Source: Patescibacteria group bacterium (lineage in GTDB: Bacteria > Patescibacteriota > Patescibacteriia > Patescibacteriales > BS150m-G62). From it: a stretch of DNA of 64,000 nt. Positions 1,123 through 15,718 of the stretch are shown here, one piece after another (positions within the stretch are counted from its first letter, which is position 1; every line of letters starts with the position of its first letter). Location of the stretch: NCBI GenBank assembly GCA_016784175.1, contig JADHVC010000001.1, positions 5,567 to 69,566 on the forward strand, written 5' to 3'. The notes under the pieces are model-generated. The model ran no database searches. It was not told the DNA's origin and was given only the letters and a program-made list of their open reading frames with translations. The position numbers and the translations under genes were made by a program.

Positions 1123-2619
1123 TTAAGGACGCTTTTCCTGCCATAAAGGTAAACAAACACTAACATTTTCAACATTTGCTGAATTGTAACAATAATAGCC
1201 TTCATTATCAGTAACCTTCACAACCACATTCATGCTACCACCTTGTAAAAATTTAATTTCACTTGGCGCCATACTCATAGAAGTATTCGGTAAAGCCTGT
1301 TCAAAAGTCCACTCGTAATTACAAAAAGTATCATTACAAGTATGTTGATTGTCACCAGTTTCCGTTTTGTAATACTTTGTATTATCCGTAAAATACACAT
1401 TCTCACCAATATTCGGATATGTTGGCAACCAACTAAAGCTTGGATTTGGGAACTTATGATAATAAGTTGTAAATGTTAAATTTGGGTCAAAAGATTCTGC
1501 TAAATTTCCAGCTATATTATCTGTAACAACATGATTAAGTGCTGAGTCAGTATTAAATTGAAACCAATCTGATTCCTTTTCACGCTCATCCCAAACTTTT
1601 ATCCACCAATAATATGGCGTTCCATACTCCAACTCTGCCGTTGAACTCGCCCCACCATTTGCAAGAGCTGCCTTCAAATTAAACCTATTTGCAACCACTG
1701 TTGTCTGACAAGCAGATCCATCATATCCACCAGAGCATACCCCACCTGAATATGTACCTAAACATTTCCCTGTATCCAACACAGGAGAGCTAGTAGAATT
1801 TGTTGTATTTACAATAATTTGATAGGCCAATTCACAACCTCCAGCATCACGATCAGAAAAATCCCACTCTAAGAATGTTTGAAGCGAGCCATACCCAGAA
1901 CAGCCCTCTTCAAAACTCCAATTTGGAGCTGACAAATTTGCAAGCTCTGGTTTATTATTCACAAAATCACCAACTACTCTATAACCAATAATTAATGGGT
2001 TAGAACAGCCAGCTGGATCATCCTCGCAATTAAAACTTATCCATCCCACACCTACCTCTGAAGCAAGATCGCTATTCGTATTATTCCCATTCCAGCCATA
2101 TCCCCTAAAAAAACCAGTATCTGACTCCGCCCGAAGATTATACAAATCCGTTCCAGTACCACCATCGTGGTCAAATCTTATCCAACCAGAATCTCCAAGA
2201 CTCAATATCTTTGCCCAACCATACACCTTATTATCAATAAAATTATAACAAGCAGAACAGCTATTTTGATCATTACTATCACATGAACTTTCCTCAATAC
2301 ATCCATCAAAAAAACCAGCTGCTGAGCTATATCCATTCTCCTGAAAACTAATCCATCCCAAATTAGGCGACCAAGCATACCCCTCAAAATCACCAGTCAT
2401 TGGTTCCACATTCACTCCATAATTAACACTTCCACATGTAAAAGTATTAGTACAATTAAAACTTATCCAACCAAAATTACCTGCCCAAGCCCAACCATAA
2501 ACATTATCACTTGTATTAGCTTTAGCTACACTAAAACTAGCCAAAAACGTTAAAGCTAGTAAAAAAAATATTTTATTTATAAATAAAGTTTTCATTGTTT
2601 TAATATAATAACCCAACAT
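1123..2619 (-). CDS. secreted Cys-rich repeat protein with four G-W...GWISF repeats
   Basis: Signal peptide MKTLFINKIFFLLALTFLASFSVAKA. Four internal repeats: YGWAWAGNFGWISFNC, GYAWSPNLGWISFQ, YGWAKILSLGDSGWIRF, GYGWNGN..VGWISFNC. Many Cys. Sits between the minor pilins and pilD. Confidence 0.5.
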   Translation of the reverse strand: MLGYYIKTMKTLFINKIFFLLALTFLASFSVAKANTSDNVYGWAWAGNFGWISFNCTNTFTCGSVNYGVNVEPMTGDFEGYAWSPNLGWISFQENGYSSAAGFFDGCIEESSCDSNDQNSCSACYNFIDNKVYGWAKILSLGDSGWIRFDHDGGTGTDLYNLRAESDTGFFRGYGWNGNNTNSDLASEVGVGWISFNCEDDPAGCSNPLIIGYRVVGDFVNNKPELANLSAPNWSFEEGCSGYGSLQTFLEWDFSDRDAGGCELAYQIIVNTTNSTSSPVLDTGKCLGTYSGGVCSGGYDGSACQTTVVANRFNLKAALANGGASSTAELEYGTPYYWWIKVWDEREKESDWFQFNTDSALNHVVTDNIAGNLAESFDPNLTFTTYYHKFPNPSFSWLPTYPNIGENVYFTDNTKYYKTETGDNQHTCNDTFCNYEWTFEQALPNTSMSMAPSEIKFLQGGSMNVVVKVTDNEGYYCYNSANVENVSVCLPLWQEKRP

Positions 2620-3382
2620 ACCAATTTATAAGCTCTGAGCCCCAAAGCATCGTAATAACAGTGGAAAAAGTTAAAAAAACACCAAATGGAACCTCCGAGT
2701 CCATCTTCTTTTTTTTCATCGAGATTAAAGCAACCCCAATTATAGAACCAAGAATATACGAAATAAATAATGCCGCTAATATATTAGGCCAACCTAAGAT
2801 CATACCCATTAAAAATCCAAGCCTAATATCTCCACCCCCTATCCACCGACCACTAGAAACAATAAATTGAATTAAAAAGAAGCTCCCTCCAATTATAGCA
2901 GAAATTAACATACCCGACCAACTAGCTCCTGTTAGTAAGTTTAGCCCAAATATTAGAACAATAGCCGGCAAAGTCACTTTATCCAAAATTAAATAATATT
3001 TTAAGTCATAAATAAAAATCACCACCAATACAGCGATGATAAAAAAGTCACGGAATAGAGCAACAAACGCAACAGCATTATAATTTAAAAAGATATGATC
3101 ATGCCTTAACAAAAAGAACAGAACAAATAATGCCCCCGTAGCCAATTCGACCACAGGGTATTGCCAAGAAATAGATTTTTTACAATGTCGACATCTAGCT
3201 TTCAACCAAACATAACTTAAAACTGGCACATTGTCATACCAATCAATTTGAACCTTACATTTAGGGCACATTGATCTACCATCCACTCTCTTTTGCGCGT
3301 GCAATCGCCAAACAAAACAATTAATAAAACTTCCTATTGAAAGACCCAATATTAAAACTAACAGTATCGAAAATATAAGCAT
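2600..3382 (-). CDS. pilD: prepilin peptidase (A24 family), PilD-like
   Basis: N-terminal tetracysteine zinc-binding region: CPKCKVQIDWYDNVPVLSYVWLKARCRHCKKSISWQYPVVELATG. Polytopic membrane body. Lies in the pilus locus. Confidence 0.85.
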   Translation of the reverse strand: MLIFSILLVLILGLSIGSFINCFVWRLHAQKRVDGRSMCPKCKVQIDWYDNVPVLSYVWLKARCRHCKKSISWQYPVVELATGALFVLFFLLRHDHIFLNYNAVAFVALFRDFFIIAVLVVIFIYDLKYYLILDKVTLPAIVLIFGLNLLTGASWSGMLISAIIGGSFFLIQFIVSSGRWIGGGDIRLGFLMGMILGWPNILAALFISYILGSIIGVALISMKKKKMDSEVPFGVFLTFSTVITMLWGSELINWYVGLLY

Positions 3383-3403: not shown

Positions 3404-4777
3404 TTACTTACTTCCAAGCCCTTCCATATCTCCACGACTCTCATTGCCAAAAGTAACTCCGACAATCAGTACAGAGATCGGCGTATAGGTTAAAATGTTA
3501 CGCACAATAGCAGTGTAATTCAATACTGCCCAATAAGAATTTGTGAACAAATAAACCGCAAAAAATAACAATATTACCAAAAATAGATAAGCCCATGCAA
3601 AAATTAGATTCTTATCGCACATTATCTTTTTGAAATATACTAAGAATATAATAAAAAATATATACCACCAAACATTAAAACTATTTGTCAAAAAATATGC
3701 TGGCAAAATATTCTGAAATATTTCATAATGCAAGCCAAGCTCACCACCCTCATTCATGATCCCTAAATCATACTTAAACTTAAAAATCTCCCATGGCAAT
3801 GCCATCAAAAATACCACAATAAAATATCTTAATAATAGTCGACATTTCAAATCCCCTAACCTAGACATTAACATTAACATTATAAATACCGCGAAAACGA
3901 ATATTATACTTTCCGATTTAACAAAAAAAGAAATGCCATAAAAAATCGCAGATAGATACAAAAAAATCATTCTCCTTCTTTGTTGCCACATTAAGAGAAA
4001 ACCAAATCCACAAAGAATATAATAACTCAAAATTAAATCAGCATAAGCATTAAAACCATGATAAAAAAATAAAGGCATCGAGCTTAAAAAAAATACCAAA
4101 ACTAGACTATAAAATAGACTAACAAAATTAATCAACAAGCAAGAAAGCACAATAAGAGTAGCCACATAATATCCAAAAAAAATAAAATTAATATATACAT
4201 CATTATACTCACCGATTACATCATGCATCCAAAACTGTACAATTGAAACTAGCCACGGATAATTAGGATGAGATCCTCCTCCTAAATATTCAAAACTATC
4301 ACTATCTGTAAGTTCGACTCCTTGTGAAGAATACAAAAGCTTAGCCCTAAAAGCCCACATAGTAACACTATCGTAGGTTGCGACTGGACGTGAAAATGCA
4401 TTAAACGCAACCATGCTGATTTGAATAAAAATAAATAGCAACATCAATGCCTCCTTCAATCGTATTCTTTCCAACAAATGTGCAATTTTTTTTGCAACAT
4501 ATATTTTCTCATTTCGCACAAATCCTCTTTGATACATATCAGCTAAAATAACATTCTCAATCAATACTAAAAGCCAAAACCAATAAACATCTAGGTTCAA
4601 TTTAAAAAGAAATATCCAAATAAAAATTTGGATTGTAATAAAATACACTCCCACTCCATACGCCAAAGCTAAACGAAACAACAAACTAAATTTATTCTCT
4701 CGCAGAAATATACCAACAAGAAAATACCCTGGCACAAAAATCGAAATAAAAAAAATGGCTAAATTAATAATTATCAT
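3404..4777 (-). CDS. polytopic membrane protein of unknown function (possible GT-C-like partner)
   Basis: 457 aa, at least 10 predicted TM helices, no recognisable soluble domain. Overlaps the downstream GT-C gene by 14 nt, which suggests translational coupling. Confidence 0.4.
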   Translation of the reverse strand: MIIINLAIFFISIFVPGYFLVGIFLRENKFSLLFRLALAYGVGVYFITIQIFIWIFLFKLNLDVYWFWLLVLIENVILADMYQRGFVRNEKIYVAKKIAHLLERIRLKEALMLLFIFIQISMVAFNAFSRPVATYDSVTMWAFRAKLLYSSQGVELTDSDSFEYLGGGSHPNYPWLVSIVQFWMHDVIGEYNDVYINFIFFGYYVATLIVLSCLLINFVSLFYSLVLVFFLSSMPLFFYHGFNAYADLILSYYILCGFGFLLMWQQRRRMIFLYLSAIFYGISFFVKSESIIFVFAVFIMLMLMSRLGDLKCRLLLRYFIVVFLMALPWEIFKFKYDLGIMNEGGELGLHYEIFQNILPAYFLTNSFNVWWYIFFIIFLVYFKKIMCDKNLIFAWAYLFLVILLFFAVYLFTNSYWAVLNYTAIVRNILTYTPISVLIVGVTFGNESRGDMEGLGSK

Positions 4778-6269
4778 ATCTTATTGCTAAAATATTATTA
4801 CTTGGTTTAAAAATACTCACTACCTTAAGATGATATTTAGAAACCAAGAAAGCATCCTCCGGTCTTAAATAGTAAACATCATAAATATTATCTGGGCCTT
4901 TTCTAGTTATAGGGTCAATATCAAACATTCCAAATTTATATCGATAAAAACTAAGTGATGGTGCCAAAATCCAAGTAGAGCCAATCATATGAATGTTTAC
5001 TCCACTCTCCTTTAGACGCGCTATCTTCTCAACCGCTTCACGAGAATTTGCATCATAACCCCATACAAAACTTGAATTATAATTTAATGAATTTAAAAAA
5101 TGAATATAACAAAAAAATATTACCACGATCCCAATAACATTAAAAATATTTTTAACTCTAGCACGACTAGCGATAATGACCATCCACACACCTAAAAATT
5201 GCAACATAAACAAAGGCAATAAGAATATGGCCGCCCGCTCAACTAAGTATCGCGTGCCAAAAAAAATATTTTGAGCCTCAATCCCAAGTAAAATAGAAAC
5301 AATAAGCAAAAGGATCAAACCGAATTCCCTTCTGACAACAAAATATTTACCACATTTCGCCAACACCAATACAATGCCAGTCACCAATTGCATTGATAAA
5401 AAAACCCATGCGATAATCTTAATAATATCGTCTCGATAATTAATACCATATAGTGTTGCTTCAATCAGACTATTAATAGTATCGCTCCATAAATTATTTA
5501 CTCCACCAAAATAAAATTCACCAGAACCATTCATCGCAACAACAGGAAAATAGTAAATTGTTAAAAGTAGTAGCAATGAAGGAACAATTGGAAGCACGAT
5601 TTCATCCCGCACATAGACAAATTTTTGCACAATACTCTTACCACTATTTCTCAGCACCCCAGCTTCAAAGAACAACACAACAACAATACTTCCCAAGTAT
5701 ACATTTAAAAATGCCAAGTTCGACAAGGTCGAGATTGTAAGGCAAGAAAAAACAATAAACAAATATTTTCTTTTTACGCGACCATCATTTAATCCCACCC
5801 ACTTTAAAAAATATATTAAGGCCCAAATAAATGTACCAATTGCCAATGAATACCCACGAGCAAGGGAAAAAAAATCTATAACAAATGGATTTACACTTAG
5901 CAAAACTACACTTGAAAATATTAAGAAATTTTCGTTAAAAAGTTTTTTAGAAATAACAAGCACGCCAGATAAATATAATAGAGCGCCAAATAATACTGGC
6001 ACTCTAGCCACAAACTCATTCAAACCGAATATGGTTGTCGTAAACTTTATCAATAAAGTATTTAGCAAGTGATGATTAGACAAAAGCGAACCCTGAAAAT
6101 ATAAAATATCGTAAAGTGAATTTTGCACATGATACATTACAGTAACTGCCTCATCATGAGTAACTGACAAAAAAACAGAACGCATTAGTGCATACAAAAA
6201 AATTGAAAAAAGAAATAGACTCAATAATGAATCCAAAATACTAACATTTTTTAAACTCTTATAAACCAT
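4764..6269 (-). CDS. GT-C fold glycosyltransferase, ArnT/PMT-like (GT39/GT83-like)
   Basis: 501 aa polytopic protein. An acidic motif sits in the first extracytoplasmic loop (SVTHDEAVTV), typical of polyprenyl-phosphate-sugar-dependent GT-C enzymes. Confidence 0.55.
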   Translation of the reverse strand: MVYKSLKNVSILDSLLSLFLFSIFLYALMRSVFLSVTHDEAVTVMYHVQNSLYDILYFQGSLLSNHHLLNTLLIKFTTTIFGLNEFVARVPVLFGALLYLSGVLVISKKLFNENFLIFSSVVLLSVNPFVIDFFSLARGYSLAIGTFIWALIYFLKWVGLNDGRVKRKYLFIVFSCLTISTLSNLAFLNVYLGSIVVVLFFEAGVLRNSGKSIVQKFVYVRDEIVLPIVPSLLLLLTIYYFPVVAMNGSGEFYFGGVNNLWSDTINSLIEATLYGINYRDDIIKIIAWVFLSMQLVTGIVLVLAKCGKYFVVRREFGLILLLIVSILLGIEAQNIFFGTRYLVERAAIFLLPLFMLQFLGVWMVIIASRARVKNIFNVIGIVVIFFCYIHFLNSLNYNSSFVWGYDANSREAVEKIARLKESGVNIHMIGSTWILAPSLSFYRYKFGMFDIDPITRKGPDNIYDVYYLRPEDAFLVSKYHLKVVSIFKPSNNILAIRYDNY

Positions 6270-6271
6270 AT

Positions 6272-6943
6272 TTAAAGCGCATTACTACTTCTCTTAAAAA
6301 CTTCCGCACCAGAGTGAAAAGCATCTATAGTTTTAAAACCTAAAAGCTTTTCATACCCTTCAGATATTTTTTTATATAGTGAACCTTCCCGAGAAAGATA
6401 GTCCACAGGATAATACAAAACAACATATTCTGCCTCCTCTAGATTACTAGCAAAATCAAAGCTTGGGTAAAGATTGTAAACTAAGTAGGCGTAATAATCA
6501 TGAGGAGCCAATACGTAGATTCGCGAATCTAGTGGCAAGGTCCTCTTAATAAATCTCACATAACTCATAAGAGCACACCACCTCTCTCCATTGCCATGAG
6601 TATATCCAAGGTTACAAAGCCTAACTACATTCTTATGATAGCTCTGCAAATTTCTATCCACATAATCATAATTATCACGCATATCATGCGCATTATTGTA
6701 TGAGAAAATCAAATAAAGCGGAAGCCAAAAAAACAAACACACATATAGAATTGATATATTAAAATTAGTCTTGAATATTTCTATTCTCTTTTTAAACAAA
6801 ACGATAGACAATACAACAATAAAAAGCAGGATACCAATAAATAATCCAACCTCCACCTTGCCAATATATACACCCGGTATCATATTAATAGTATAAAAAG
6901 CTTCCGCCTGATTCACGAAGAATTTATCGAACATTATAAACAA
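6272..6943 (-). CDS. hypothetical membrane-anchored protein
   Basis: 223 aa. Two N-terminal TM helices then a soluble domain. Overlaps the upstream gene by 20 nt. Confidence 0.35.
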   Translation of the reverse strand: MFIMFDKFFVNQAEAFYTINMIPGVYIGKVEVGLFIGILLFIVVLSIVLFKKRIEIFKTNFNISILYVCLFFWLPLYLIFSYNNAHDMRDNYDYVDRNLQSYHKNVVRLCNLGYTHGNGERWCALMSYVRFIKRTLPLDSRIYVLAPHDYYAYLVYNLYPSFDFASNLEEAEYVVLYYPVDYLSREGSLYKKISEGYEKLLGFKTIDAFHSGAEVFKRSSNAL

Positions 6944-9362
6944 ACATATTATTAATTATATTCGGTTGCATGTCATATAATCCATTTAAATATTCAATAG
7001 TATTTCTTAATTGAACATGATAATAATACTCCGGATGAATTATAATATATTTGATATTCAACTTCTCAAAATTATCCAATGCGTCAACTTGAATATTTGA
7101 TATTTGGTTGTGAGGCATTGGTTCCTTAGGATTAATCAAATATGTCAGACCAACTAGCTGACTATAAAAACTATAATAATTATTCGGCACCCTAGAAATC
7201 CAAGCATTAATTAATTTTTTATGATGAATAGACTGATAATATTCAAGTTTAGAGGACACTGAAATATTTCCCAAAGTATAGAAGTTAGTACTTAGTGCAA
7301 ATGGCAACTCTAAGATCGAATAATCCGACTTATCCTGTGCCAATCTATAATAAAGACTTGGAATTTCTGCGTTCGATATTGGAATAGGAGCTAAAATATT
7401 TTCAAATAGAAATACACCGAAAAATAACAATGCTATACTTACCCTTATCACTTCACTCTTTATGCCACTTAATATAAATCTTAACCCAAATGCAGCTAAA
7501 ACAATCAAAGCTAAAATTACAAATATAATAAATCTAGCTGGCACTAAAATACCACTAATAAATGGAACTTTCATTGGCAATAAATATGGCAATGGCACAC
7601 TGAACTCATAATCAAACAAACTAAAAATAAATCCTTCCATATATAAATACGGACCCAACACAACCAATATATACGAAAATATAACAGTTACCCAAAAAGC
7701 GTATACCTTAATATTCTTCCTAAAAGAATTTAAAATCAAACCAACCAATGCAAGAAAGATCAAGGAATAACTCAAATATATCATAGAACCGTGAAAGCCA
7801 AGTGCTTTATAATAATCACCAACAATATCAGAAAATACAGTATGGTATTGCGAAGGCATAAAAAATGACCTGACATCTGGTGAATATAAACTAACTTGTG
7901 ACAAATTTGCTGAAGGATAAGCACCACTCAAGGCCGTTAATACAGATAAATAAATTAGTGGAGATGAAAGTATCAACCACACAACAATAAATATAATTAA
8001 TGATTTAATTTTTTGAAAATAGAATTGTCTCTCAACTATAAAATAGTAAACAATATATATCAGGGCAAATGCTAATAAACCCAACGTATAATAAAACTCA
8101 TTATATAAAGATACAGCTAAAATTATACTAGCAAAAACAGCATTTCTTACACGACTCTCGCTAAAAATTTTTAAAAAAAAGTAAATAAAAAAAGGAATAA
8201 CATAAACGCTAGTATATTGGAAATGTCCCCTTGCCTCACCCAAAACATATGAATTCAAAAAAAACATCAAACCACCGATAATTGCAACTAACTGATTTTT
8301 AACTAAATCCATAAGCAAAAAATACATTCCAAGGCCTGCAAGCACCAATGATCCCAAAAATATTATATTAAACGATATCACTGGCGAAATAACCAGTTGC
8401 AAAGGTATAGATATCAAGCCACTAAAAAATGTTAAGGTATGAAATACTAAATTAGTATCAAAGGGATAAGCTATAAAATTAACAAAATATGGATTTTGAC
8501 CCAAATCAATCAAAGCATACTTAACCCACCACTGGTTCCACAGAAACAAAAATGAATCGCCACCATCGCCAGGAATAGAAGTATCAACATTAATAATTAA
8601 GGGATATGTAGCGACTATTAATGTCAAAAAATATAAAAAAATTACCCAAGAAAGCTTTAGTTTTTTATTCTTTTTTTTTACTAATGTATTTCCTAAGCGA
8701 TGTTTAATTAAGGTTGCAATTGCAGTCAAGCCATCACGCCAACCAATCTTCTTACCCTCTTCAAAACTTCTACCATCATAATCAATTGGCAGCTCCATAA
8801 TCTCATGCCCAGCCAAAATAAATTTCGCAGTAATTTCCGGCTCAATATCAAAGCGATTAGCAACCAAATCAATATCATCTATAACACTTCTACTGAACAT
8901 TTTATAACAAGTTTCCATATCAGTTACCTTCTGGCCATACAAAAAACTTGTCAAAAAAGACAAGAACTTATTACCCACATAAGCCATAAAATACTGGGGC
9001 CTAAAACTCTTATTTAAAAACCTTGATCCATAAACAACCTTCACTTTTCCTAAAATAATTGGCTGAATCAGTTTTATAAAATCCTGGGGGTTATACTCCA
9101 AATCAGCATCTTGCACCACAACAATATCTCCACTTGCATTTTTAAAACCAGTTCTTATGGCAGCGCCTTTCCCACGATTCTTGTCTTGATAAATTATTCT
9201 ATACTTACCTTCTAACTTCGATAAAATATTTCGCGTCGAATCTGTCGAATAATCATCAACAATAATAATTTCTTTATTGATCGGCACCACCTCTACCCTT
9301 CTAATTATTTCTAAGAGGGTCTTCTCTTCATTGTAAACTGGGATTACAATACTTAATTTCAT
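6924..9362 (-). CDS. GT2 glycosyltransferase (polyprenyl-phosphate sugar synthase, DPM1/GtrB-like) fused to a large polytopic membrane domain
   Basis: N-terminus MKLSIVIPVYNEEKTLLEIIRRV...IIVDDYSTDST...VVQDADLEY is a GT-A/GT2 DxD catalytic domain of about 230 aa. It is followed by about 580 aa with many TM helices. Confidence 0.7.
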   Translation of the reverse strand: MKLSIVIPVYNEEKTLLEIIRRVEVVPINKEIIIVDDYSTDSTRNILSKLEGKYRIIYQDKNRGKGAAIRTGFKNASGDIVVVQDADLEYNPQDFIKLIQPIILGKVKVVYGSRFLNKSFRPQYFMAYVGNKFLSFLTSFLYGQKVTDMETCYKMFSRSVIDDIDLVANRFDIEPEITAKFILAGHEIMELPIDYDGRSFEEGKKIGWRDGLTAIATLIKHRLGNTLVKKKNKKLKLSWVIFLYFLTLIVATYPLIINVDTSIPGDGGDSFLFLWNQWWVKYALIDLGQNPYFVNFIAYPFDTNLVFHTLTFFSGLISIPLQLVISPVISFNIIFLGSLVLAGLGMYFLLMDLVKNQLVAIIGGLMFFLNSYVLGEARGHFQYTSVYVIPFFIYFFLKIFSESRVRNAVFASIILAVSLYNEFYYTLGLLAFALIYIVYYFIVERQFYFQKIKSLIIFIVVWLILSSPLIYLSVLTALSGAYPSANLSQVSLYSPDVRSFFMPSQYHTVFSDIVGDYYKALGFHGSMIYLSYSLIFLALVGLILNSFRKNIKVYAFWVTVIFSYILVVLGPYLYMEGFIFSLFDYEFSVPLPYLLPMKVPFISGILVPARFIIFVILALIVLAAFGLRFILSGIKSEVIRVSIALLFFGVFLFENILAPIPISNAEIPSLYYRLAQDKSDYSILELPFALSTNFYTLGNISVSSKLEYYQSIHHKKLINAWISRVPNNYYSFYSQLVGLTYLINPKEPMPHNQISNIQVDALDNFEKLNIKYIIIHPEYYYHVQLRNTIEYLNGLYDMQPNIINNMFVYNVR

Positions 9363-9570: not shown

Positions 9571-10431
9571 ATGATCGAAATTCAAACCCTAAAAAAAAAG
9601 ATAGCTGGTGTAGTGATTATTTATAATCCGCCAAAAAGCTTAATATGCAATATTAATTCCTACATCAACTTTGTCGATACCTTAATTATAATTGACAACT
9701 CTCAACACAGGAATAAAGCAATAATTAATGAATTAAATCAAAATAGAAAAATCATTTACAATTTTAGCAATAAAAACATTGGAATAGCAAAGGCACTAAA
9801 CAAAGCAGCTAACATAGCAATACAAAAAAAATACAACTGGCTTCTTACAATGGATCAGGACAGTAAATTTAACCCAGGAGCACTTAACCTGATGCTTGAG
9901 TTTATACAAAAAAATAACACTGAAACTGTTGGGATAGTGGCACCCATACAAAAAAATAAACTTGAAAAATATCCAACTCACACTGCTGAGTATGAAGAAA
10001 TTCTAAGCAGCATGAACTCTGGAAACCTCATCAATCTAAATATATATAAAAAAACTGGACCATACCTCGAAAAATTATTTATAGATTATGTTGATCACGA
10101 ATATTGTCTAAAAATAAAATCTTATGGATACAAAATTATTCGAATCAATAATGCAATACTATACCACAACCTAGGTAACTTAAAAAAACATGCTTCTTTC
10201 TTAGTCACAAACCACAATGAACAAAGAAGATTTTTCATTACCTTAAATAGACTATACGTAATGAATAAATACAAAAAACAATTTCCGATTTTTTATAATA
10301 TCTGTCTACGCGCTTCAATAAGAGAGTTTGTCTTTATCATATTATTTGAAAATAGAAAATATCTTAAAATAAAAAATATTATAAAGGCAATTATCCATTA
10401 TAATAAAAATTTTAAACTTGATGCAAAATAA
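9571..10431 (+). CDS. GT2 family glycosyltransferase
   Basis: GVVIIYNPPKSLICNIN...LIIIDNSQ...LLTMDQDS is a GT-A fold with DxD motifs. It is the only plus-strand gene in the block. Confidence 0.65.
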   Translation: MIEIQTLKKKIAGVVIIYNPPKSLICNINSYINFVDTLIIIDNSQHRNKAIINELNQNRKIIYNFSNKNIGIAKALNKAANIAIQKKYNWLLTMDQDSKFNPGALNLMLEFIQKNNTETVGIVAPIQKNKLEKYPTHTAEYEEILSSMNSGNLINLNIYKKTGPYLEKLFIDYVDHEYCLKIKSYGYKIIRINNAILYHNLGNLKKHASFLVTNHNEQRRFFITLNRLYVMNKYKKQFPIFYNICLRASIREFVFIILFENRKYLKIKNIIKAIIHYNKNFKLDAK

Positions 10432-10455: not shown

Positions 10456-12933
10456 CTATTTTCTATTCAATAAAATTTGTTTCAACCAAAGTAAATAGTT
10501 AATCTCATTTTTTATTCCGGAAGTCACAATCTGATCATCCATTATAAGTAATTCTTTTCTATTAACTACCTCGTCGGGATAATAATTCAAAACCTTTTCA
10601 ATATATTCGTTAGCTTCCAATATTCTCTCCTGACCGATCAATAAATTTATCAAATTTATATAGTACCTGGGTCTGTACTTATCTAAAGATATTGCGCGCT
10701 TAAATTCATTTTCAGCTTTTAGTGTATTACCATCTGTCTCGAATAATTTTCCACTTAACTCATAATTTAACGAATCACCCTCGTCGTGCTGTATCAAATA
10801 ATTAGCAATAGATCTTGACTCCGCCAACTTCATACTCCTCATATTTTGATCATCCATCTGAAGCCCAAGAGTATATTTTATTATTGCAAGCTCACGCAAA
10901 TATTTTACACTCAGTATATTAACTTTAACGGCTCGTTCTAAATATATTTCTGACTGCACATAATCACCCTGATGTTTATGTGCAACTCCTATATTAAAAT
11001 TATAGTAACTCATAGTTATAACTACGCCAACAACTAAAAATAAACATAACCCGACTAACAAATAAAATTTACCAATATTAATTATATTTATATTAGTATC
11101 TTCAGTGTCGACTTCTACAAAAACTGCATTACTCAACAAACCTAAATAAATCCAAAATATAAAATTATTAACTTGATAATGAGATCCAATATCTATAAAA
11201 TTATGCATCAAAAAAGCTAAAACACATAAATAGATTACTAAACATAAATCATCTTTCCTGCTTAATAAAAAACCATAATACAACATATACAATAAAAATA
11301 AAGCAAAGAAAACAAAATTCACAACCCCTACTTCACTAAGCAATTCTAAATACCAATTATGTGCATATTTTCCAGAACTTAAGGGGTTCACCTGATATTC
11401 CGGATAAGCCAAGCTGAATGTACCAAGCCCACTCCCAAACAATGGATAATTTGCAATTATATCAACAGCACCATTCCAATAATCCAAGCGTATATTTGCC
11501 GACACGTCCCCCACCCCAATACTCGACTCTTCTCGCTCTATGAAAGACGCTTTTGAACCTTTCATAAAATCAATTACACTAAAAAATATACCGATCGATA
11601 GAGTCACTAACACTAAACTAAAATATATATTTTTTAAATTAACTTTCTTAATTACGAATAAAAACAAACAAACAATTCCTCCACATAAAAATGCACCCCT
11701 CGACCCAGTTAAAATTAGTGCCGTGATATTTATTCCAGATAATAGAGCAAATAGAATTTTTCTAAAAAAATCTGTAGAAACAAATAAAAAATACAGGCCA
11801 ATAGGAGTCGTCAAAAGCAAAAAACTAGCGAATGGATTAGGCCAATAAAAAACCGAAGTAAGTCTATTATAACTGCCGCCAAGATAAATATCCAAACCAA
11901 CTAAACTAAGAGTCACAGAAATCAACAATAAAGCGAACAACAATATTTTTACATATCGTCTTCTAAGCCTCAAATGCATAAATATAAAATAAACAATACC
12001 AAAAAATAAATAGTAAAACCAATTAACAAGACTCACTAACAATGAACTTGAAAATGGTAAACTTAAAAATGTTAATAATAGAAATAACGACAACATACTC
12101 ATGGCCGTTAACTTCACACCAGCATGACTTGAGCTCACCACTTTATTATGAATCTTTATAAACAATCTAATTGGACATCTTAATAATTTCATAATATATA
12201 ACTGCACAACACCTAAGTGCTTTCTAAAATAGTAATCTTGTGAAACATAGTACAACTCTTTCTTTAAACTAAATATCTTTGAACTTCCTCCACCCAAATG
12301 TATTAAATGTACTGAAGGTAACACCACGCTCACAAACCCAGCAACATTCACTTTTTTACACAAATCAATATCCTCAAAATACATAAAAAATTTTTCATCA
12401 AAACCACCAACCATATCAAAAATAGATTTTCTAATTACTAATGCAGCACCTGTAACCCAATCGGTCTCAAAATATCCATTCCTACATTCACGTTTTCCTA
12501 CTTTAAACTTATTAGAAATTAAACTGAATATATTTGGAAAATCACCATATGCATGTGCCTGCTCACTTCCATCTTCAAGGATCAACTTTGGCAAGACAAT
12601 ACCCACCCCCTCATTAAATATAAATAATTCATCTATCTTTTCTAGAATGTTATCACTTACAATTGTGTCAGAATTTAAAAAAAACAAATATTTACCAGTA
12701 GCAATTTTTGACGCTTGATTATTAGCACATCCAAAACCAACATTTGTTTTATTACTTATTATCTTAACTTTATTAATAAATTTATCTTTAAAATACTCAA
12801 CACTTCCATCGCAAGAATTATTATCAACCAAAATAATTTCAAACATCCTTTCTGAACAATGTTTTAAAACAGAAATTATACAGTTCTTTGTTAACTCTAA
12901 TGTATTATAATTTACTATTATAATTGAAAACAT
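10456..12933 (-). CDS. fusion protein: N-terminal GT2, central O-antigen-ligase-like (Wzy_C) polytopic domain, C-terminal TPR repeats
   Basis: N-terminus MFSIIIVNYNTLELTKNCIISVLKHC...ILVDNNSCDGS is a GT2 domain. The middle has about 10 TM helices with a long periplasmic loop, the Wzy_C/O-antigen ligase architecture. The C-terminus has TPR-like repeats (YLERAVKVN..., ENEFKRAISLDKYRPRYYINLINLLIGQERILEANEYIEKVLNYYPD). Confidence 0.6.
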   Translation of the reverse strand: MFSIIIVNYNTLELTKNCIISVLKHCSERMFEIILVDNNSCDGSVEYFKDKFINKVKIISNKTNVGFGCANNQASKIATGKYLFFLNSDTIVSDNILEKIDELFIFNEGVGIVLPKLILEDGSEQAHAYGDFPNIFSLISNKFKVGKRECRNGYFETDWVTGAALVIRKSIFDMVGGFDEKFFMYFEDIDLCKKVNVAGFVSVVLPSVHLIHLGGGSSKIFSLKKELYYVSQDYYFRKHLGVVQLYIMKLLRCPIRLFIKIHNKVVSSSHAGVKLTAMSMLSLFLLLTFLSLPFSSSLLVSLVNWFYYLFFGIVYFIFMHLRLRRRYVKILLFALLLISVTLSLVGLDIYLGGSYNRLTSVFYWPNPFASFLLLTTPIGLYFLFVSTDFFRKILFALLSGINITALILTGSRGAFLCGGIVCLFLFVIKKVNLKNIYFSLVLVTLSIGIFFSVIDFMKGSKASFIEREESSIGVGDVSANIRLDYWNGAVDIIANYPLFGSGLGTFSLAYPEYQVNPLSSGKYAHNWYLELLSEVGVVNFVFFALFLLYMLYYGFLLSRKDDLCLVIYLCVLAFLMHNFIDIGSHYQVNNFIFWIYLGLLSNAVFVEVDTEDTNINIINIGKFYLLVGLCLFLVVGVVITMSYYNFNIGVAHKHQGDYVQSEIYLERAVKVNILSVKYLRELAIIKYTLGLQMDDQNMRSMKLAESRSIANYLIQHDEGDSLNYELSGKLFETDGNTLKAENEFKRAISLDKYRPRYYINLINLLIGQERILEANEYIEKVLNYYPDEVVNRKELLIMDDQIVTSGIKNEINYLLWLKQILLNRK

Positions 12934-12944
12934 ATAATCTCAAT

Positions 12945-14954
12945 TTATTTATCTATTTGGCTAATTAAATTTTCAAATACCTCTCTCTCTATCCTTACCT
13001 CTTCTTTATGCTCCCCATGAATAATGAGATTTAACTTTTCATTTGCAAGATCAGGAAGCTTGTTTAGTCCCCTATTTAAATATGCTAATGCTTCCGTGGG
13101 CCTATCTTGCCAAAAGAGCAATTGAGCTAAGTTTCGATAATGTATCGTAAAATTTGGATTATACTCTATCGCTTTTTTATATTCCATCTCTGCCTCACTA
13201 AAATATTCAGAGTTATAGTAACTACCAATATATGTATATGCATGCGCGACACTAATCATCGACCTAAATGAATAATTCATTAATTTTATATCCTTAACAA
13301 TACTTAGTAAATCACTTACTAGCTCATGCTTAACTACGCCAGTCTCCATTTGTGATAAACACCTTGAACCATACTCTAAAAAATCTTCCTTGTATGTTAC
13401 TTTATTTGGATTTAAAAATATAGCCATATTTATATTCTCGACAAAATCAGAGCAATTATTTGACGTTAAATATTTGTCTGCGCGTGAACGAAAAAAATCT
13501 GCCCGAGCTACAAATATTAGTTCATAACTCATAAACAGTGCAAAAACCATCACAACCATTAACAATAATCTTTTAAAATATATTTCATTAAAGTACAAAA
13601 CAACAAAACTATCACTTAAAACACAAAGATTCTGAACCAAGATAACCATAAAACCTAAGCACAACAAAGCCATCATATTCCCAACTACTAAAGAAAAACT
13701 AAATAAATCATTAACTGTATGAGCAAATAAAGAGCAAGCTAAAGCAATTATAAGCCAGCACTCATCACGATTAGATTTATCAAGGCCTCTTATGCACGAC
13801 AAGCCGAGGGATAATATATAACAAAATATTGAAATCAATAATAAAAAACCAATAATACCAACTTGTAAAAGTGAGTCCAATACAAAGCTATGTGCACGAG
13901 AGGGATAAGTATTTACTTTTTCATAAATAGCCAGCTCTGGTTTATAATGCTTAGCAAAAATATAATCTAAAGTATCAGGACCATAACCAAACAAAACCCT
14001 AACACTAGTCGCACCTCTCAATTCATCTAATGCGGAACCCCAATGAATCATTCTATTTTTTACTGAACCACTGCTAAAATCTGCAATACTCTTAACTCGC
14101 TGAGCAAAAATGGGACTCAATTGCATTAAGACTATCCCCAAAAATAAAATACCAATCATTATAACATAATGAACCATATTTAATTTAAACTTTAAGGCGT
14201 CAAGGCGTTTAAGATTTAGTGCAAAGAATATCAAAATAATTAAAACAGCGAAGCCGAGCCCAAGCCAAGCTGCTCTTGAATAGGTTAAAATTAAACATAT
14301 AAATTGCAACACAACTAAGCCCAACAAGCTCACCCTCCAAAACATATTAGATGCTAGGAAATAGACTGAATATATAGAAAGCGGAATTACAATTATCAAA
14401 TAATGTCCAAGATAGTTTGGATGACCTAGTGTCGATGATAGTCTATCAGCAAAAGAGTTCTCCATAACACCAAAAAACTGCAATAAACCAAAAACACAAA
14501 CAACAAAAGAAGCTGCACAGAGACAAATTATAAATCTCTTTATCTGACTTAAACTCGAAACACTAAAAACAAGAAGCAAAAAAAATAAAACATAAAAAAA
14601 ATAACTTACAAATCCCTGTTCACGCAAATTTCCACCCCAAATACTTTGATTTAAATTTAAAGAAAAAACTGATGAGATAAATACAGATACTAAATATAAA
14701 AAACACAACGAGATTAAAGTAACTTGTACTTTACTAAACCTCAAACCAGTTCTCAAATTGTCTTTATCAACAAAATATTTAAATATTAACAATAACCACC
14801 CCCCCCCTACTAGCACTTGAAAAATAACCAACTTAGGTAAAATAAATATATCATAAAACTCATTAAAAAAAGCAATGTATACAGGAATAATTAAAACTAT
14901 AGCATATATCAAATAGTCAATAAACCGATCAATATTATTAATAATAACTTTCAT
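12945..14954 (-). CDS. O-antigen-ligase-like (Wzy_C family) polytopic membrane protein with C-terminal TPR repeats
   Basis: 669 aa, multi-TM with a large loop. C-terminal TPR-like segment (EMEYKKAIEYNPNFTIHYRNLAQLLFWQDRPTEALAYLNRGL). It is a paralogous architecture to the neighbouring fusion gene. Confidence 0.55.
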   Translation of the reverse strand: MKVIINNIDRFIDYLIYAIVLIIPVYIAFFNEFYDIFILPKLVIFQVLVGGGWLLLIFKYFVDKDNLRTGLRFSKVQVTLISLCFLYLVSVFISSVFSLNLNQSIWGGNLREQGFVSYFFYVLFFLLLVFSVSSLSQIKRFIICLCAASFVVCVFGLLQFFGVMENSFADRLSSTLGHPNYLGHYLIIVIPLSIYSVYFLASNMFWRVSLLGLVVLQFICLILTYSRAAWLGLGFAVLIILIFFALNLKRLDALKFKLNMVHYVIMIGILFLGIVLMQLSPIFAQRVKSIADFSSGSVKNRMIHWGSALDELRGATSVRVLFGYGPDTLDYIFAKHYKPELAIYEKVNTYPSRAHSFVLDSLLQVGIIGFLLLISIFCYILSLGLSCIRGLDKSNRDECWLIIALACSLFAHTVNDLFSFSLVVGNMMALLCLGFMVILVQNLCVLSDSFVVLYFNEIYFKRLLLMVVMVFALFMSYELIFVARADFFRSRADKYLTSNNCSDFVENINMAIFLNPNKVTYKEDFLEYGSRCLSQMETGVVKHELVSDLLSIVKDIKLMNYSFRSMISVAHAYTYIGSYYNSEYFSEAEMEYKKAIEYNPNFTIHYRNLAQLLFWQDRPTEALAYLNRGLNKLPDLANEKLNLIIHGEHKEEVRIEREVFENLISQIDK

Positions 14955-15495: not shown

Positions 15496-15531
15496 AATTA
15501 TTATAATATATCATCTTTATCTCTAAAGGTC

Positions 15532-15540
15532 ATTATACCA
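15532..15540 (-). promoter_or_regulatory. extended -10 element (TGgTATAAT) upstream of pilin paralog 2
   Basis: The minus-strand sequence reads tggtataatgacc, about 36 nt upstream of the ATG at 15495. Confidence 0.4.
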
Positions 15541-15627
15541 CAAATTAAAAAATATATTTAAGATACATGCCGTGCAGAAATGTGCATAAGTTCAAATCTG
15601 TATTTCCAGCGCATAAAACAACAAATT

Positions 15628-15679: not shown

Positions 15680-15718
15680 AATATTGAATCTTTAAGCAGG
15701 ATCCCTTTAAAGACTCAA

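What the first reader, a model, noticed from the sequence alone, without database searches (positions are those of the whole stretch)
3404..9362. DPM1-like GT2 fused to a roughly 580-aa polytopic domain plus ArnT/PMT-like GT-C and a second polytopic protein inside the pilus locus
The 812-aa protein has a canonical polyprenyl-phosphate sugar synthase GT2 head (VIPVYNEE...DD.S.D.T...QDAD) fused to a large multi-TM body. The next genes are a GT-C enzyme with an acidic loop motif (THDEA) and another polytopic protein, with overlapping start/stop codons (14- and 20-nt overlaps). This suggests a coupled synthase-plus-transferase for a polyprenyl-P-linked monosaccharide that decorates a periplasmic or surface target, possibly the pilus or adhesin encoded around it.
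Basis: partly seen in the sequence, partly recalled or inferred. Interest (0 to 1): 0.55.

Follow-up and report, generated by a model that had tools for sequence, protein, structure and literature searches.

The report
Fused lipid-sugar synthase and GT-C transferase
In an uncultured Patescibacteria (CPR) genome, the type IV pilus operon contains a four-gene sugar-attachment module in which the enzyme that loads a sugar onto a membrane lipid is fused to one of three enzymes that probably transfer that sugar to a target outside the cell; this is an unusual layout of a well-known system, and the target is not proven.

Summary
The ORFs and motifs are real, but the region holds four genes, not three. 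They are an 812-aa fusion, an overlooked 223-aa membrane protein, and two GT-C enzymes of 501 and 457 aa.

- **GT2 head:** residues 1-223 of the 812-aa protein are an intact DPM1/ArnC/GtrB-type GT2. Its best matches are polyprenyl-phosphate sugar synthases.
- **C-terminal domain:** residues 226-812 have no Pfam hit. A confident AlphaFold model (pLDDT 91) matches STT3/AglB/PglB, DPY19 and ArnT, so the domain is a GT-C glycosyltransferase, not a transporter. One loop-1 acid (D269) is conserved in 37/37 homologues.
- **Downstream proteins:** the 501- and 457-aa proteins belong to PMT_2/GT39-like families. Profile comparison links the three GT-Cs (Cdom-p501 93%, p501-p457 75%) and aligns their loop-1 acids.
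- **Fusion:** it recurs in independent assemblies. Orthologous GT2s in relatives are free-standing (228-241 aa), and GT2::GT-C fusions arose independently elsewhere.
- **Context:** the core GT2 - p223-like - GT-C - PilD module lies downstream of a Wzy_C-TPR gene in several Patescibacteria loci.

Best reading: a GtrB/GT-C-type extracytoplasmic glycosylation system, probably acting on pilins. The target and the sugar are unproven, and no flippase is visible in the window.

Novelty: a new variant of a known kind, of moderate interest.

The parts
6924..9362 (-). 812-aa fusion protein: polyprenyl-phosphate sugar synthase-type GT2 joined to a GT-C glycosyltransferase
   Evidence: ORF. The identical protein is on three contigs shown from separate assemblies. 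NCBI names it 'glycosyltransferase [Patescibacteria group bacterium]'.
8694..9362 (-). GT2 head, aa 1-223 (cytoplasmic, DPM1/AglJ/ArnC/GtrB type)
   Evidence: Pfam PF00535 at 3.4e-36. NCBIfam top hits are AglJ, dolichyl-P-hexose transferase, ArnC, PpgS and PgfS, all below their equivalog cut-offs. PDB hits: 5mlz DPMS 6e-20, ArnC 2e-16, GtrB 6e-9. D36-D37, D85-A-D87 and D148 are present. Free-standing GT2s of 228-241 aa are 45-72% identical.
8671..8679 (-). A9 homopolymer inside the Lys-rich linker (VKKKNKKLK) at the GT2/GT-C junction
   Evidence: A8 or A10 would stop translation after 232 or 230 aa, which is the size of a free-standing GT2. There is no canonical in-frame start codon for a separate GT-C gene before the middle of TM1.
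6927..8657 (-). GT-C domain, aa 236-812: 11 TM helices plus a C-terminal extracytoplasmic alpha/beta domain (~155 aa), with loop-1 acid D269
   Evidence: AlphaFold2 pLDDT 91.4, pTM 0.91. Foldseek against PDB: STT3, AglB, PglB at E 6e-8 to 2e-4; DPY19 2e-5; ArnT 3e-4; all at probability 1.00. D269 is D or E in 37/37 homologues; R610, E654 and H713 are nearly invariant. hhalign to the 501-aa family gives probability 92.9%. The domain itself has no Pfam hit; some homologues carry DUF6311 or PMT_2.
6272..6943 (-). p223: conserved 2-TM accessory protein with a ~140-aa C-terminal domain holding two invariant Cys; function unknown
   Evidence: ORF. Two TM segments. Orthologues sit next to the GT2/GT-C genes in L005-L008 and L014-L016. 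It is fused to the C-terminus of a p501-type GT-C in L016. No Pfam, NCBIfam or profile link was found. The model is poor and has no significant fold match.
4764..6269 (-). p501: PMT_2/GT39-like GT-C glycosyltransferase with loop-1 T37-H-D39-E40
   Evidence: 19 of 29 family members hit PF13231, and some are named GT39. T37, D39 and E40 are at least 90% conserved. 10 TM segments. Orthologues in L006/L007 are 38-41% identical.
3404..4777 (-). p457: PMT_2/GT39-like GT-C glycosyltransferase with a ~100-aa N-terminal 3-TM extension; invariant D136
   Evidence: 25 of 28 family members hit PF13231. D136 is invariant. hhalign to the p501 family gives probability 74.6% and aligns TYD136S with THDE. This is the most widely conserved GT-C of the module.
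2600..3382 (-). Context: prepilin peptidase PilD, immediately downstream
   Evidence: Pfam A24_N_bact 4e-30 and Peptidase_A24 8e-13. It is adjacent to the glycosylation genes in at least 9 related loci.
9571..10431 (+). Context: 286-aa GT2, rhamnosyltransferase-like, divergently oriented
   Evidence: Pfam PF00535 4e-13; TIGR01556 6e-30, below its cut-off.
10456..14954 (-). Context: two Wzy_C + TPR membrane proteins (825 aa with an N-terminal GT2; 669 aa), directly downstream of the pilin genes
   Evidence: Pfam Wzy_C 1e-19 and 1e-15, with TPR repeats. The 825-aa protein's GT2 head is free-standing in L014/L015 at 51-54% identity.
15043..16198 (-). Context: two type IV major-pilin-like genes (150 and 159 aa, GFTLIELLVVIAIIG)
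   Evidence: Translations. N_methyl in the public gene calls. PilC, PilB, PilO and PilM lie upstream on the same strand.

Best explanation
The region encodes a four-gene, multi-component transmembrane glycosylation module of the GtrB/GT-C ('three-component') kind. It sits inside a type IV pilus operon of a Patescibacteria bacterium.

**Step 1 (inferred from homology).** The cytoplasmic GT2 head of the 812-aa protein transfers a sugar from a nucleotide sugar to a polyprenyl phosphate. This gives polyprenyl-P-sugar.

**Step 2 (not accounted for).** The lipid-linked sugar reaches the outer leaflet. No GtrA- or Wzx-type flippase is present in the 64-kb window.

**Step 3 (fold and motifs shown, chemistry inferred).** Three GT-C enzymes use the lipid-linked donor at the outer face of the membrane. 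They are the domain fused to the synthase, p501 and p457. Each carries a conserved acidic residue in its first extracytoplasmic loop. They either act on different acceptors or add successive sugars.

**p223.** This is an extracytoplasmic-facing accessory subunit of the GT-Cs.

**Topology of the fusion.** The GT-C N-terminus is taken to be cytoplasmic by analogy with solved GT-Cs. An N-terminal GT2 therefore sits on the cytoplasmic face, tethered by a ~12-residue linker. The fusion also supplies the membrane anchor that this TM-less GT2 otherwise lacks.

**Acceptor (inferred from gene context only, about 45% likely).** The most likely acceptors are type IV pilins or pilus-associated proteins. 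This would parallel TfpW (a GT-C encoded beside pilA) and TfpO/PglL (Wzy_C-type enzymes encoded beside pilins).

The confidence given (0.6) is for the whole statement. The enzyme assignments alone (GT2 synthase plus three GT-Cs forming one glycosylation module) I put at about 0.85.
For: **GT2 head.**
- Pfam, NCBIfam ranking and PDB matches to DPMS, ArnC and GtrB with the motifs aligned all point to a polyprenyl-phosphate sugar synthase.

**C-terminal domain is GT-C.**
- The AlphaFold model has pLDDT 91.4.
- Foldseek hits are STT3, AglB, PglB, DPY19 and ArnT at probability 1.00.
- D269 is D or E in 37/37 homologues.
- The profile link to the p501 family aligns GDGGD269S with THD39E40.

**p501 and p457.**
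- Their families are PMT_2 by Pfam in 19/29 and 25/28 members.

**The fusion is real.**
- The identical protein is on three contigs shown from separate assemblies.
- There is no separate start codon for the GT-C part.

**Functional coupling.**
- The same GT2 subfamily is fused to other GT-Cs in both orders (P0209, P0219, P0238).
- A different GT2 is fused to the same GT-C family (P0120).
- In L004 a separate GT2 gene and a GT-C homologue overlap by 8 nt.

**p223.**
- It is fused to a p501-type GT-C in L016.

**Context.**
- The operon runs PilM...PilB-PilC-pilins-Wzy_C-...-PilD-minor pilins on one strand.
- Adjacency of the glycosylation genes to PilD is conserved at 25-72% protein identity.

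**Precedents.**
- Three- and four-component systems (PMC10821137; PMC11127046).
- PgfS with two GT-Cs, encoded together with their adhesin substrates (PMC12041528).
- TfpW (doi 10.1101/2020.04.19.049825).
Against: - No biochemical data exist, and neither the sugar nor the acceptor is known.
- All NCBIfam hits for the GT2 head are far below their equivalog cut-offs, so donor specificity cannot be assigned.
- No flippase gene is in the window.
- The GT2 subfamily is fused more often to methyltransferases and GT4 enzymes than to GT-Cs. Its lipid-linked product may therefore be elaborated further in the cytoplasm rather than used as a monosaccharide donor.
- Three GT-C-domain homologues in GTDB genomes (L009-L011) have no GT2 or PilD within 10 kb.
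- In two loci PilD is followed by FtsA/FtsZ rather than pilins. The link to PilD could therefore reflect conserved gene order in reduced genomes rather than shared function.
- The window proteins p501, p457 and the GT-C domain give no Pfam hit themselves.
Confidence: 0.6

Rival explanations
1. The enzymology is the same, but the acceptor is not the pilus. The module would decorate a cell-envelope glycopolymer (a teichoic-acid-like polymer or other wall polysaccharide), or glycosylate many extracytoplasmic Ser/Thr-rich proteins. Its position next to PilD would be inherited gene order.
For: - Most characterised GtrB/GT-C systems modify LPS, teichoic acids or rhamnan (PMC10821137; PMC11127046). 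The streptococcal GtrB/PgtC2 and Pgf systems glycosylate many membrane proteins (PMC12041528).
- In L015 and in the P0120 locus, PilD is followed by FtsA/FtsZ, not pilins.
- L009-L011 carry the GT-C homologue without PilD nearby.
Against: - In the window and in L001, L004, L006, L007 and L016, the genes lie between pilin or Wzy_C genes and PilD plus minor pilins on one strand. In L014 they lie between the major pilin and Wzy_C genes and PilD.
- The adjacency to PilD survives divergence down to 25-45% identity.
- Known pilin-modifying enzymes are typically encoded beside pilin genes (PMC3643930 and PMC9829042 abstracts).
Confidence: 0.3
2. The GT2 head makes a polyprenyl-monophosphate sugar that acts as a primer, not as a final donor. 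Cytoplasmic enzymes extend it: the 286-aa GT2 and the GT2 head of the 825-aa protein here, and methyltransferases or GT4 enzymes in relatives. After export, a GT-C transfers or polymerises the oligosaccharide en bloc, as proposed for lactococcal WpsA/B with WpsH/WpsJ.
For: - This GT2 subfamily is often fused to SAM methyltransferases (7 of the 20 multidomain or unusually long proteins from the list that were scanned), to GT4 enzymes (2) or to a second GT2 (2).
- Related loci are rich in methyltransferases and additional GT2/GT4 genes.
- Three GT-Cs could divide polymerase and ligase roles as in lactococci (PMC10821137).
Against: - The window's island contains no methyltransferase and no flippase for an oligosaccharide.
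- The minimal conserved module is only GT2 - p223 - one GT-C - PilD. That arrangement is typical of monosaccharide side-chain systems.
Confidence: 0.25
3. The fusion is not real. A one-base error in the A9 run at the junction merged two adjacent genes, a free-standing GT2 and a GT-C.
For: - An A9 homopolymer sits exactly at the junction. A8 or A10 would end the GT2 at 232 or 230 aa, the size of its free-standing orthologues.
- Of 66 GT-C-type cluster representatives in the top 150, only one other (P0120) has a GT2 N-terminus.
Against: - The identical 812-aa product was called on contigs from separate assemblies: two ENA assemblies and one Logan assembly of a sequencing run.
- No ATG, GTG or TTG in frame exists between the GT2 end and the middle of TM1, so a separate GT-C gene would lack TM1.
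- Independent fusions of the same kind exist (P0120, P0209, P0219, P0238).
Confidence: 0.05
4. The C-terminal ~587-aa domain is a flippase or transporter for the lipid-linked sugar rather than a glycosyltransferase.
For: - No other flippase candidate is in the window.
- TfpW has been proposed to combine flippase and transferase roles.
Against: - All significant fold matches are catalytic GT-C enzymes. MFS and other transporters score probability ~0.1 with TM-score ~0.1.
- The loop-1 acid D269 is conserved in 37/37 homologues.
- The profile link to the PMT_2-like p501 family is 92.9%.
Confidence: 0.03

Closest known systems
Three/four-component extracytoplasmic glycosylation systems (GtrA/GtrB/GtrC of Shigella/Salmonella phages; CsbB/GtcA/YfhO; GacI/GacJ/GacK/GacL)
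   Same: Both have a DPM1-like GT2 that would make a polyprenyl-P-sugar, plus GT-C enzyme(s) with a loop-1 acid. The genes are tightly clustered and translationally coupled.
   Different: Here the synthase is covalently fused to a GT-C. There are three GT-Cs for one synthase. No GtrA-, Wzx- or MATE-type flippase lies in the locus. An extra 2-TM accessory protein (p223) is unrelated in sequence to GacJ/WpsB as far as could be tested. The genes sit in a type IV pilus operon.
Streptococcus mutans Pgf pathway (PgfS GT2 + PgfM1/PgfM2 GT-C, encoded with adhesins Cnm/CnaB/CbpA)
   Same: One GtrB-type synthase serves more than one GT-C, and the genes lie next to genes for surface proteins that are the substrates. 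The GT2 head hits the PgfS model at 3e-14.
   Different: The Pgf GT-Cs are YfhO-type; here they are PMT_2-like and DUF6311-related. There is no fusion in Pgf. No epimerase is present here. The candidate substrates would be pilins rather than sortase-anchored adhesins.
Pseudomonas aeruginosa TfpW (with TfpO/PilO and Neisseria PglL for the neighbouring Wzy_C genes)
   Same: A GT-C enzyme encoded in the pilin locus uses a polyprenyl-P-monosaccharide donor to glycosylate the major pilin. Wzy_C-type O-oligosaccharyltransferases are encoded directly downstream of pilin genes, as the two Wzy_C-TPR genes are here.
   Different: Sequence relatedness to TfpW was not tested. TfpW's donor (decaprenyl-P-arabinofuranose) is made by DprE-type enzymes, not by a GT2. 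The organism here belongs to the Patescibacteria (CPR).
STT3/AglB/PglB oligosaccharyltransferases (GT66), and ArnT (GT83), PMT (GT39), DPY19 (GT98)
   Same: These are the best structural matches to the fused domain, so they share its GT-C fold. They also have an N-terminal TM1 followed by a long first external loop carrying the catalytic acid, and a C-terminal extracytoplasmic domain.
   Different: No sequence-level match to any of them was found. There is no WWDxG motif. TM-scores are only ~0.5. Their donors are polyprenyl-PP-oligosaccharides (GT66) rather than the P-monosaccharide expected from the fused GT2.
Mycobacterial Ppm1 (polyprenyl-P-mannose synthase fused to a membrane domain) - recalled from memory, not tested here
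   Same: A TM-less DPM1-like GT2 gains its membrane anchor by fusion to a polytopic protein from the same pathway neighbourhood.
   Different: The partner in Ppm1 is an Lnt-like acyltransferase domain, not a GT-C that would consume the product.

Membership tests
DPM1/GtrB/ArnC-type polyprenyl-phosphate sugar synthases (GT2, GT-A fold) | GT2 catalytic domain recognised by family models | tested here: met
   PF00535 at 3.4e-36 and 125 bits against a cut-off of 23.3, covering profile positions 1-167 of 168.
DPM1/GtrB/ArnC-type polyprenyl-phosphate sugar synthases (GT2, GT-A fold) | Nucleotide- and metal-binding motifs (PxYNE, DDxSxD, DxD) and the acidic residue aligned with the ArnC/GtrB catalytic region | tested here: met
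   IPVYNEE, VDD36-37YSTD, QD85AD87LEYNP and TD148METCYK align with DPMS 5mlz and ArnC 9bhc.
DPM1/GtrB/ArnC-type polyprenyl-phosphate sugar synthases (GT2, GT-A fold) | Closest characterised relatives are lipid-phosphate sugar synthases rather than other GT2 enzymes | tested here: met
   The top PDB hits are DPMS, three ArnC entries, then GtrB (sll0501). The top NCBIfam hits are AglJ, dolichyl-P-hexose transferase and ArnC, with PpgS and PgfS among the next three.
DPM1/GtrB/ArnC-type polyprenyl-phosphate sugar synthases (GT2, GT-A fold) | Equivalence to a specific characterised enzyme (donor sugar assignable) | tested here: not met
   All NCBIfam equivalog scores are far below their cut-offs, for example AglJ at 116 bits against 325.
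DPM1/GtrB/ArnC-type polyprenyl-phosphate sugar synthases (GT2, GT-A fold) | Formation of polyprenyl-P-sugar from a nucleotide sugar | not testable with these tools
   This needs an enzyme assay.
GT-C fold glycosyltransferases (fused C-terminal domain, aa 226-812) | GT-C architecture: polytopic N-terminal module, long first external loop, extracytoplasmic C-terminal domain | tested here: met
   The AlphaFold2 model has pLDDT 91.4 and pTM 0.91, with 11 TM helices and an alpha/beta C-terminal domain. Foldseek gives 22 PDB hits at E<=1e-3, all catalytic GT-C enzymes.
GT-C fold glycosyltransferases (fused C-terminal domain, aa 226-812) | Conserved acidic residue in external loop 1 | tested here: met
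   D269 is D in 31 and E in 6 of 37 aligned homologues. It aligns with D39/E40 of the p501 family.
GT-C fold glycosyltransferases (fused C-terminal domain, aa 226-812) | Membership of a curated GT-C sequence family (Pfam) | tested here: inconclusive
   The domain itself has no hit at E<=0.1. Homologues carry DUF6311 (precomputed, 8 of 45), or PMT_2 (3), YfhO (1, weak) or PTPS_related (1).
STT3/PglB/AglB oligosaccharyltransferases (GT66) | WWDxG motif and sequence-level similarity to STT3 | tested here: not met
   There is no WWD in the protein. No STT3, PglB or AglB sequence hit appears even at E<=1. The similarity is in fold only.
PMT_2 / GT39-GT83-like GT-C (p501 and p457) | Match to PF13231 | tested here: inconclusive
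   The window proteins themselves have no hit at E<=0.01. However, 19 of 29 p501-family members and 25 of 28 p457-family members match (best 2e-9 and 1e-13), and sources name several of them GT39.
PMT_2 / GT39-GT83-like GT-C (p501 and p457) | Acidic motif in loop 1 after TM1 (DE in PMTs, Asp in ArnT) | tested here: met
   In p501, D39 and E40 are at least 90% conserved. In p457, D136 is invariant and aligns with them.
Gtr-type three-component system | Dedicated small flippase (GtrA/GtcA) or a Wzx/MATE flippase in the locus | tested here: not met
   No ORF of 80 aa or more with at least 3 TM segments exists in the window, other than the GT-Cs, the Wzy_C proteins, PilC, PilD, Lgt, an ABC-2 permease and one 83-aa ORF. 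The rest of the genome was not available.
Pilin glycosylation systems (TfpW / TfpO / PglL type) | Glycosyltransferase gene located in the pilin locus | tested here: met
   The order is pilins - Wzy_C-TPR x2 - GT2::GT-C - p223 - p501 - p457 - PilD - minor pilins, all on one strand. This is conserved in relatives.
Pilin glycosylation systems (TfpW / TfpO / PglL type) | Pilin actually carries the glycan; homology to TfpW | not tested
   No TfpW sequence was compared, and showing the glycan needs mass spectrometry.

The most novel reading that the evidence does not exclude
The 812-aa protein is a self-contained transmembrane glycosylation machine. The synthase and the transferase in one polypeptide hand the polyprenyl-P-sugar across the membrane, with the GT-C domain or p223 assisting translocation. 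No dedicated flippase would then be needed, and the machine would be dedicated to glycosylating Patescibacteria type IV pilins. As an extension, slippage at the A9 run in the linker could set the ratio of free synthase (230-232 aa) to fused enzyme, so that one gene also supplies donor to the two unfused GT-Cs.
Probability: 0.1. Interest if true: 0.8.

Novelty: new variant of a known kind. Interest (0 to 1): 0.45.

Why it matters
**Mechanism.**
- How polyprenyl-phosphate sugars cross the membrane, and how they reach GT-C enzymes, is still poorly defined. [quoted passage not shown]
- A natural fusion of donor synthase and GT-C, with free-standing orthologues available as controls, gives a compact construct for reconstituting the pathway. 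It could show whether proximity or channelling matters.

**Biology.**
- Type IV pili are central to the episymbiotic lifestyle of Patescibacteria. Their glycosylation has been predicted but not shown (PMC11623550).
- A glycosylation island conserved inside the pilus operon names concrete candidate enzymes, and pilin C-terminal Ser/Thr candidates, that can be tested.

**New families.**
- The analysis also defines two uncharacterised families: a DUF6311-related GT-C family and the p223 accessory family.

Tried and rejected
**Searches that gave nothing**
- Direct Pfam and NCBIfam scans of p223, p501, p457 and the GT-C domain gave no hits apart from one sub-threshold Pfam match for p223 (DUF2162, E 0.007).
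- PDB sequence searches with single sequences and with family profiles of p501 and p457 gave no hits even at E<=1-10.
- Pairwise BLASTP among the three polytopic proteins found nothing significant. Only profile-profile comparison linked them. The link between the GT-C domain and p457 stayed weak at probability 27%.

**p223**
- It showed no profile link to either GT-C family tested.
- The single-sequence model was poor (pLDDT 64.7).
- Foldseek on that model found nothing significant. The best hit was the GT-C enzyme DPY19 at E 0.07, which I treat as a hint only.

- The search for related loci failed with the broad alignment. With the narrower alignment it returned only 6 loci.
- The promoter/terminator scan was at chance level (49 sites against 45.4 +/- 6.6 expected).
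- The literature search found no paper describing GT2::GT-C fusions or DUF6311.

**Hypotheses rejected**
- MFS or flippase identity for the C-terminal domain.
- STT3-family membership.
- Assembly artefact as the main explanation for the fusion.

Full report
**What is in the sequence**

Four co-directional ORFs fill 3404..9362 on the minus strand:

| ORF | Coordinates | Length |
|---|---|---|
| 812-aa fusion | 6924..9362 | 812 aa |
| p223 | 6272..6943 | 223 aa (TTG start; 220 aa from the ATG at codon 4) |
| p501 | 4764..6269 | 501 aa |
| p457 | 3404..4777 | 457 aa |

- The 812/p223 overlap is 20 nt, or 11 nt with the ATG start.
- p223 and p501 are separated by 2 nt.
- p501 and p457 overlap by 14 nt.
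It did not list p223 as a gene and attributed the 20-nt overlap to the GT-C gene.
- The window is ~31% G+C.
- The 812-aa protein is identical to an NCBI entry from a 'Patescibacteria group bacterium'.

**The GT2 head (aa 1-223)**

- Pfam Glycos_transf_2 matches aa 4-164 at 3.4e-36.
- The best NCBIfam models are AglJ, dolichyl-phosphate hexose transferase and ArnC, with PpgS and PgfS among the next three. All are lipid-phosphate sugar synthases, and all score far below their equivalog cut-offs.
- The best solved relatives are Pyrococcus DPMS (6e-20), ArnC (2e-16) and GtrB (6e-9).
- PxYNE, DDxSxD, D85-A-D87 and the TD148 region align with these structures.
- The donor sugar cannot be assigned.

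**The C-terminal ~587 aa**

- No Pfam, NCBIfam or PDB sequence match was found.
- Forty-four homologues were found in addition to the query's own entry. Most are free-standing proteins of ~580 aa, and a few carry DUF6311 or PMT_2.
- An AlphaFold2 model built with 38 sequences is confident (pLDDT 91.4, pTM 0.91). It shows TM1, a long first external loop, ten further TM helices and a ~155-aa alpha/beta C-terminal domain.
- Foldseek against the PDB returns only catalytic GT-C enzymes at E<=1e-3, all at probability 1.00 with TM-scores ~0.5:
  - STT3 of yeast and human OST, AglB, PglB
  - the C-mannosyltransferase DPY19
  - ArnT
- MFS and other transporters appear only at probability ~0.1.
- One acidic residue in loop 1, D269 in PGDGGD269SF, is D or E in 37/37 aligned homologues. 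R610, E654 and H713 are nearly invariant.
- The domain is a GT-C glycosyltransferase from an uncurated family. It is not an STT3-family member: there is no WWDxG motif and no sequence-level hit.
- Solved GT-Cs have a cytoplasmic N-terminus (established knowledge of PglB, ArnT and PMT topology). By analogy, the N-terminal GT2 is placed in the cytoplasm, joined by a ~12-residue Lys-rich linker.

**The other three proteins**

- p501 and p457 themselves give no Pfam hit, but their families do. PMT_2 (PF13231) matches 19/29 members of the p501 family and 25/28 of the p457 family, and sources name several 'glycosyltransferase family 39'.
- Profile-profile comparison links the fused GT-C domain to the p501 family at probability 92.9% (E 3.8e-7, 410 columns). 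This aligns GDGGD269S with T-H-D39-E40.
- It links the p501 family to the p457 family at 74.6% (E 2.6e-5). This aligns THDE with T-Y-D136-S.
- The locus therefore has three divergent GT-Cs, each with a conserved loop-1 acid. p457 has an extra ~100-aa, 3-TM N-terminal extension.
- p223 has two TM segments and a ~140-aa C-terminal domain with two invariant cysteines.
- The positive loop between its TM segments suggests both termini face outward. A DsbA-like gene is present in the window.
- Its fold could not be established.
- In locus L016 a complete p501-type GT-C is fused in frame to a p223-type protein. This argues that p223 is a GT-C accessory subunit.

**Is the fusion real, and how unusual is it?**

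- The identical 812-aa product was called on contigs from two ENA assemblies and one Logan assembly.
- The closest orthologues of the head are free-standing proteins:

| Locus | Identity to the head | Length |
|---|---|---|
| L006, L007 | 70-72% | 230, 241 aa |
| L015, L016 | 59-60% | 228 aa |
| L005, L008 | 45% | 234 aa (L005) |

- In L004 a different GT2 gene overlaps a homologue of the GT-C domain by 8 nt.
- An exhaustive phmmer search of 1.8 billion cluster representatives was run. Among its best 150 hits there were 66 representatives of the GT-C-domain type. Only one of these, P0120 (837 aa), has a GT2 N-terminus, and it is a different GT2 subtype.
- The head's own subfamily is fused to other GT-Cs in both orders: P0209, P0219 (GT2::PMT) and P0238 (PMT_2::GT2).
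- More often that subfamily is fused to SAM methyltransferases, GT4 enzymes or a second GT2.
- The junction carries an A9 run at 8671..8679. A8 or A10 would terminate the GT2 at 232 or 230 aa. There is no in-frame canonical start for a separate GT-C before mid-TM1.
- I therefore regard the fusion as genuine: rare, recurrent and lineage-specific. I flag the A9 run as something to check at the read level.

**Context**

The minus strand carries a type IV pilus operon in this order:

1. PilM
2. an unannotated 611-aa ORF
3. PilO
4. PilB
5. a response regulator
6. PilC
7. two major-pilin-like genes
8. Wzy_C-TPR (669 aa)
9. GT2::Wzy_C-TPR (825 aa)
10. a divergently oriented GT2 (the only plus-strand gene in the series)
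11. the four genes described here
12. the prepilin peptidase PilD
13. a 498-aa repeat protein
14. minor pilins, followed by DNA ligase in the longer public contig L001

- The core 'GT2 - p223-like - p457-like GT-C - PilD' module recurs in L005/L008, L006, L007, L014, L015 and L016, usually downstream of a Wzy_C-TPR gene.
- Homologues of the GT-C domain sit beside PilD in L004 and L013 and in the P0120 locus.
- Three other GTDB loci have the GT-C homologue alone.
- In two loci PilD is followed by FtsA/FtsZ instead of pilins.
- No GtrA-, Wzx- or MATE-like ORF is present in the window.

**How it most likely works**

- *Shown:* domain identities, folds, motifs, the fusion and the synteny.
- *Inferred:* the GT2 head makes a polyprenyl-P-sugar on the cytoplasmic face. 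After translocation by an unidentified route, the three GT-Cs use it outside the membrane, and p223 assists them.
- This is the logic of the Gtr, CsbB-YfhO and GacI-GacL three- or four-component systems (PMC10821137; PMC11127046). It is also the logic of the streptococcal PgfS/PgfM1/PgfM2 pathway, which is encoded with its adhesin substrates (PMC12041528).
- By analogy with TfpW and with Wzy_C-type O-oligosaccharyltransferases encoded next to pilins (abstracts), the acceptor is most plausibly a pilin or a pilus-associated protein. I put this at about 45%.
- A general envelope or protein target (~30%) is not excluded.
- A primer-and-oligosaccharide variant (~25%, not exclusive of the other two) is also not excluded.
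- Pilin glycosylation in Patescibacteria has so far only been predicted (PMC11623550).

**Verdict**

- This is a new variant of a known kind of system, not a new kind. What is unusual:
  - the covalent synthase::GT-C fusion;
  - three GT-Cs and an uncharacterised accessory protein;
  - the absence of a visible flippase;
  - the conserved position inside CPR pilus operons.
- Interest is moderate (0.45).

Noticed in passing
window 10456..12933 (-): The 825-aa protein is a second fusion in the same locus: GT2 (aa 1-257) + Wzy_C + TPR. Its GT2 head is a free-standing 259-263-aa protein in L014 and L015 (51-54% identity). This genome has therefore fused two separate glycosyltransferases to their membrane partners.
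   Followed up: partly
window 8671..8679 (T9 on + strand, A9 in the mRNA sense): A homopolymer lies exactly at the GT2/GT-C junction. One base more or fewer would give a 230- or 232-aa free-standing GT2. It could be a slippage site, or it could be coincidence in an AT-rich genome.
   Followed up: partly
window 4764..6269 (-): Public gene calls start this protein at M29 (473 aa). That start would remove TM1 (aa 11-29), which precedes the THDE loop. Homologues of 493-498 aa align from about residue 25, so the 501-aa start is more likely.
   Followed up: partly
L016 5766..7997: A 743-aa protein is an in-frame fusion of a complete p501-type GT-C with a p223-type protein. The order is the reverse of the gene order in the window.
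   Followed up: partly
window 15043..15495 and 15719..16198 (-); L014 2252..2668: The major-pilin-like proteins share a C-terminal motif, GG(I/V/L)P.GV..A(S/T).AGI, with a conserved Ser/Thr close to the C-terminus. This is a candidate O-glycosylation site by analogy with C-terminal Ser glycosylation of Pseudomonas group I pilin (from memory).
   Followed up: no
window 1123..2619 (-): A 498-aa secreted protein lies directly after PilD. It has four or more repeats of a G(W/Y)(A/G)W...GWISF motif, many Cys residues and a weak Ig_Rha78A_N hit. It is 61-64% identical in L006/L007 at the same position and may be a pilus-associated adhesin or lectin.
   Followed up: no
L012 1820..2692 and 3834..4622: A homologue of the GT-C domain is split into two tblastn segments (query aa 25-315 and 324-585) separated by ~1.1 kb. 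This suggests an insertion or a disrupted gene.
   Followed up: no
window 21160..22995 (-) and 20246..20620 (-): ORFs of 611 aa and 124 aa inside the pilus operon, between PilM and PilB, have no Pfam hit.
   Followed up: no
window 25593..26324 (+): A DsbA/thioredoxin-like protein is encoded here. It fits extracytoplasmic disulfide formation, which is relevant to the invariant Cys pair of p223 and the Cys-rich pilus proteins.
   Followed up: no
window 46465..47280 (-): An ABC-2-type permease (7 TM) is the only other exporter-like membrane protein in the window. It could belong to a glycan or teichoic-acid-type export system.
   Followed up: no
related loci L004, L006, L007, L015, L016: The equivalent islands in relatives are rich in SAM methyltransferases (up to four in L015), and the GT2 subfamily is often fused to methyltransferases. 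The window's island has none. This suggests methylated glycans in relatives and a variable glycan structure between lineages.
   Followed up: partly
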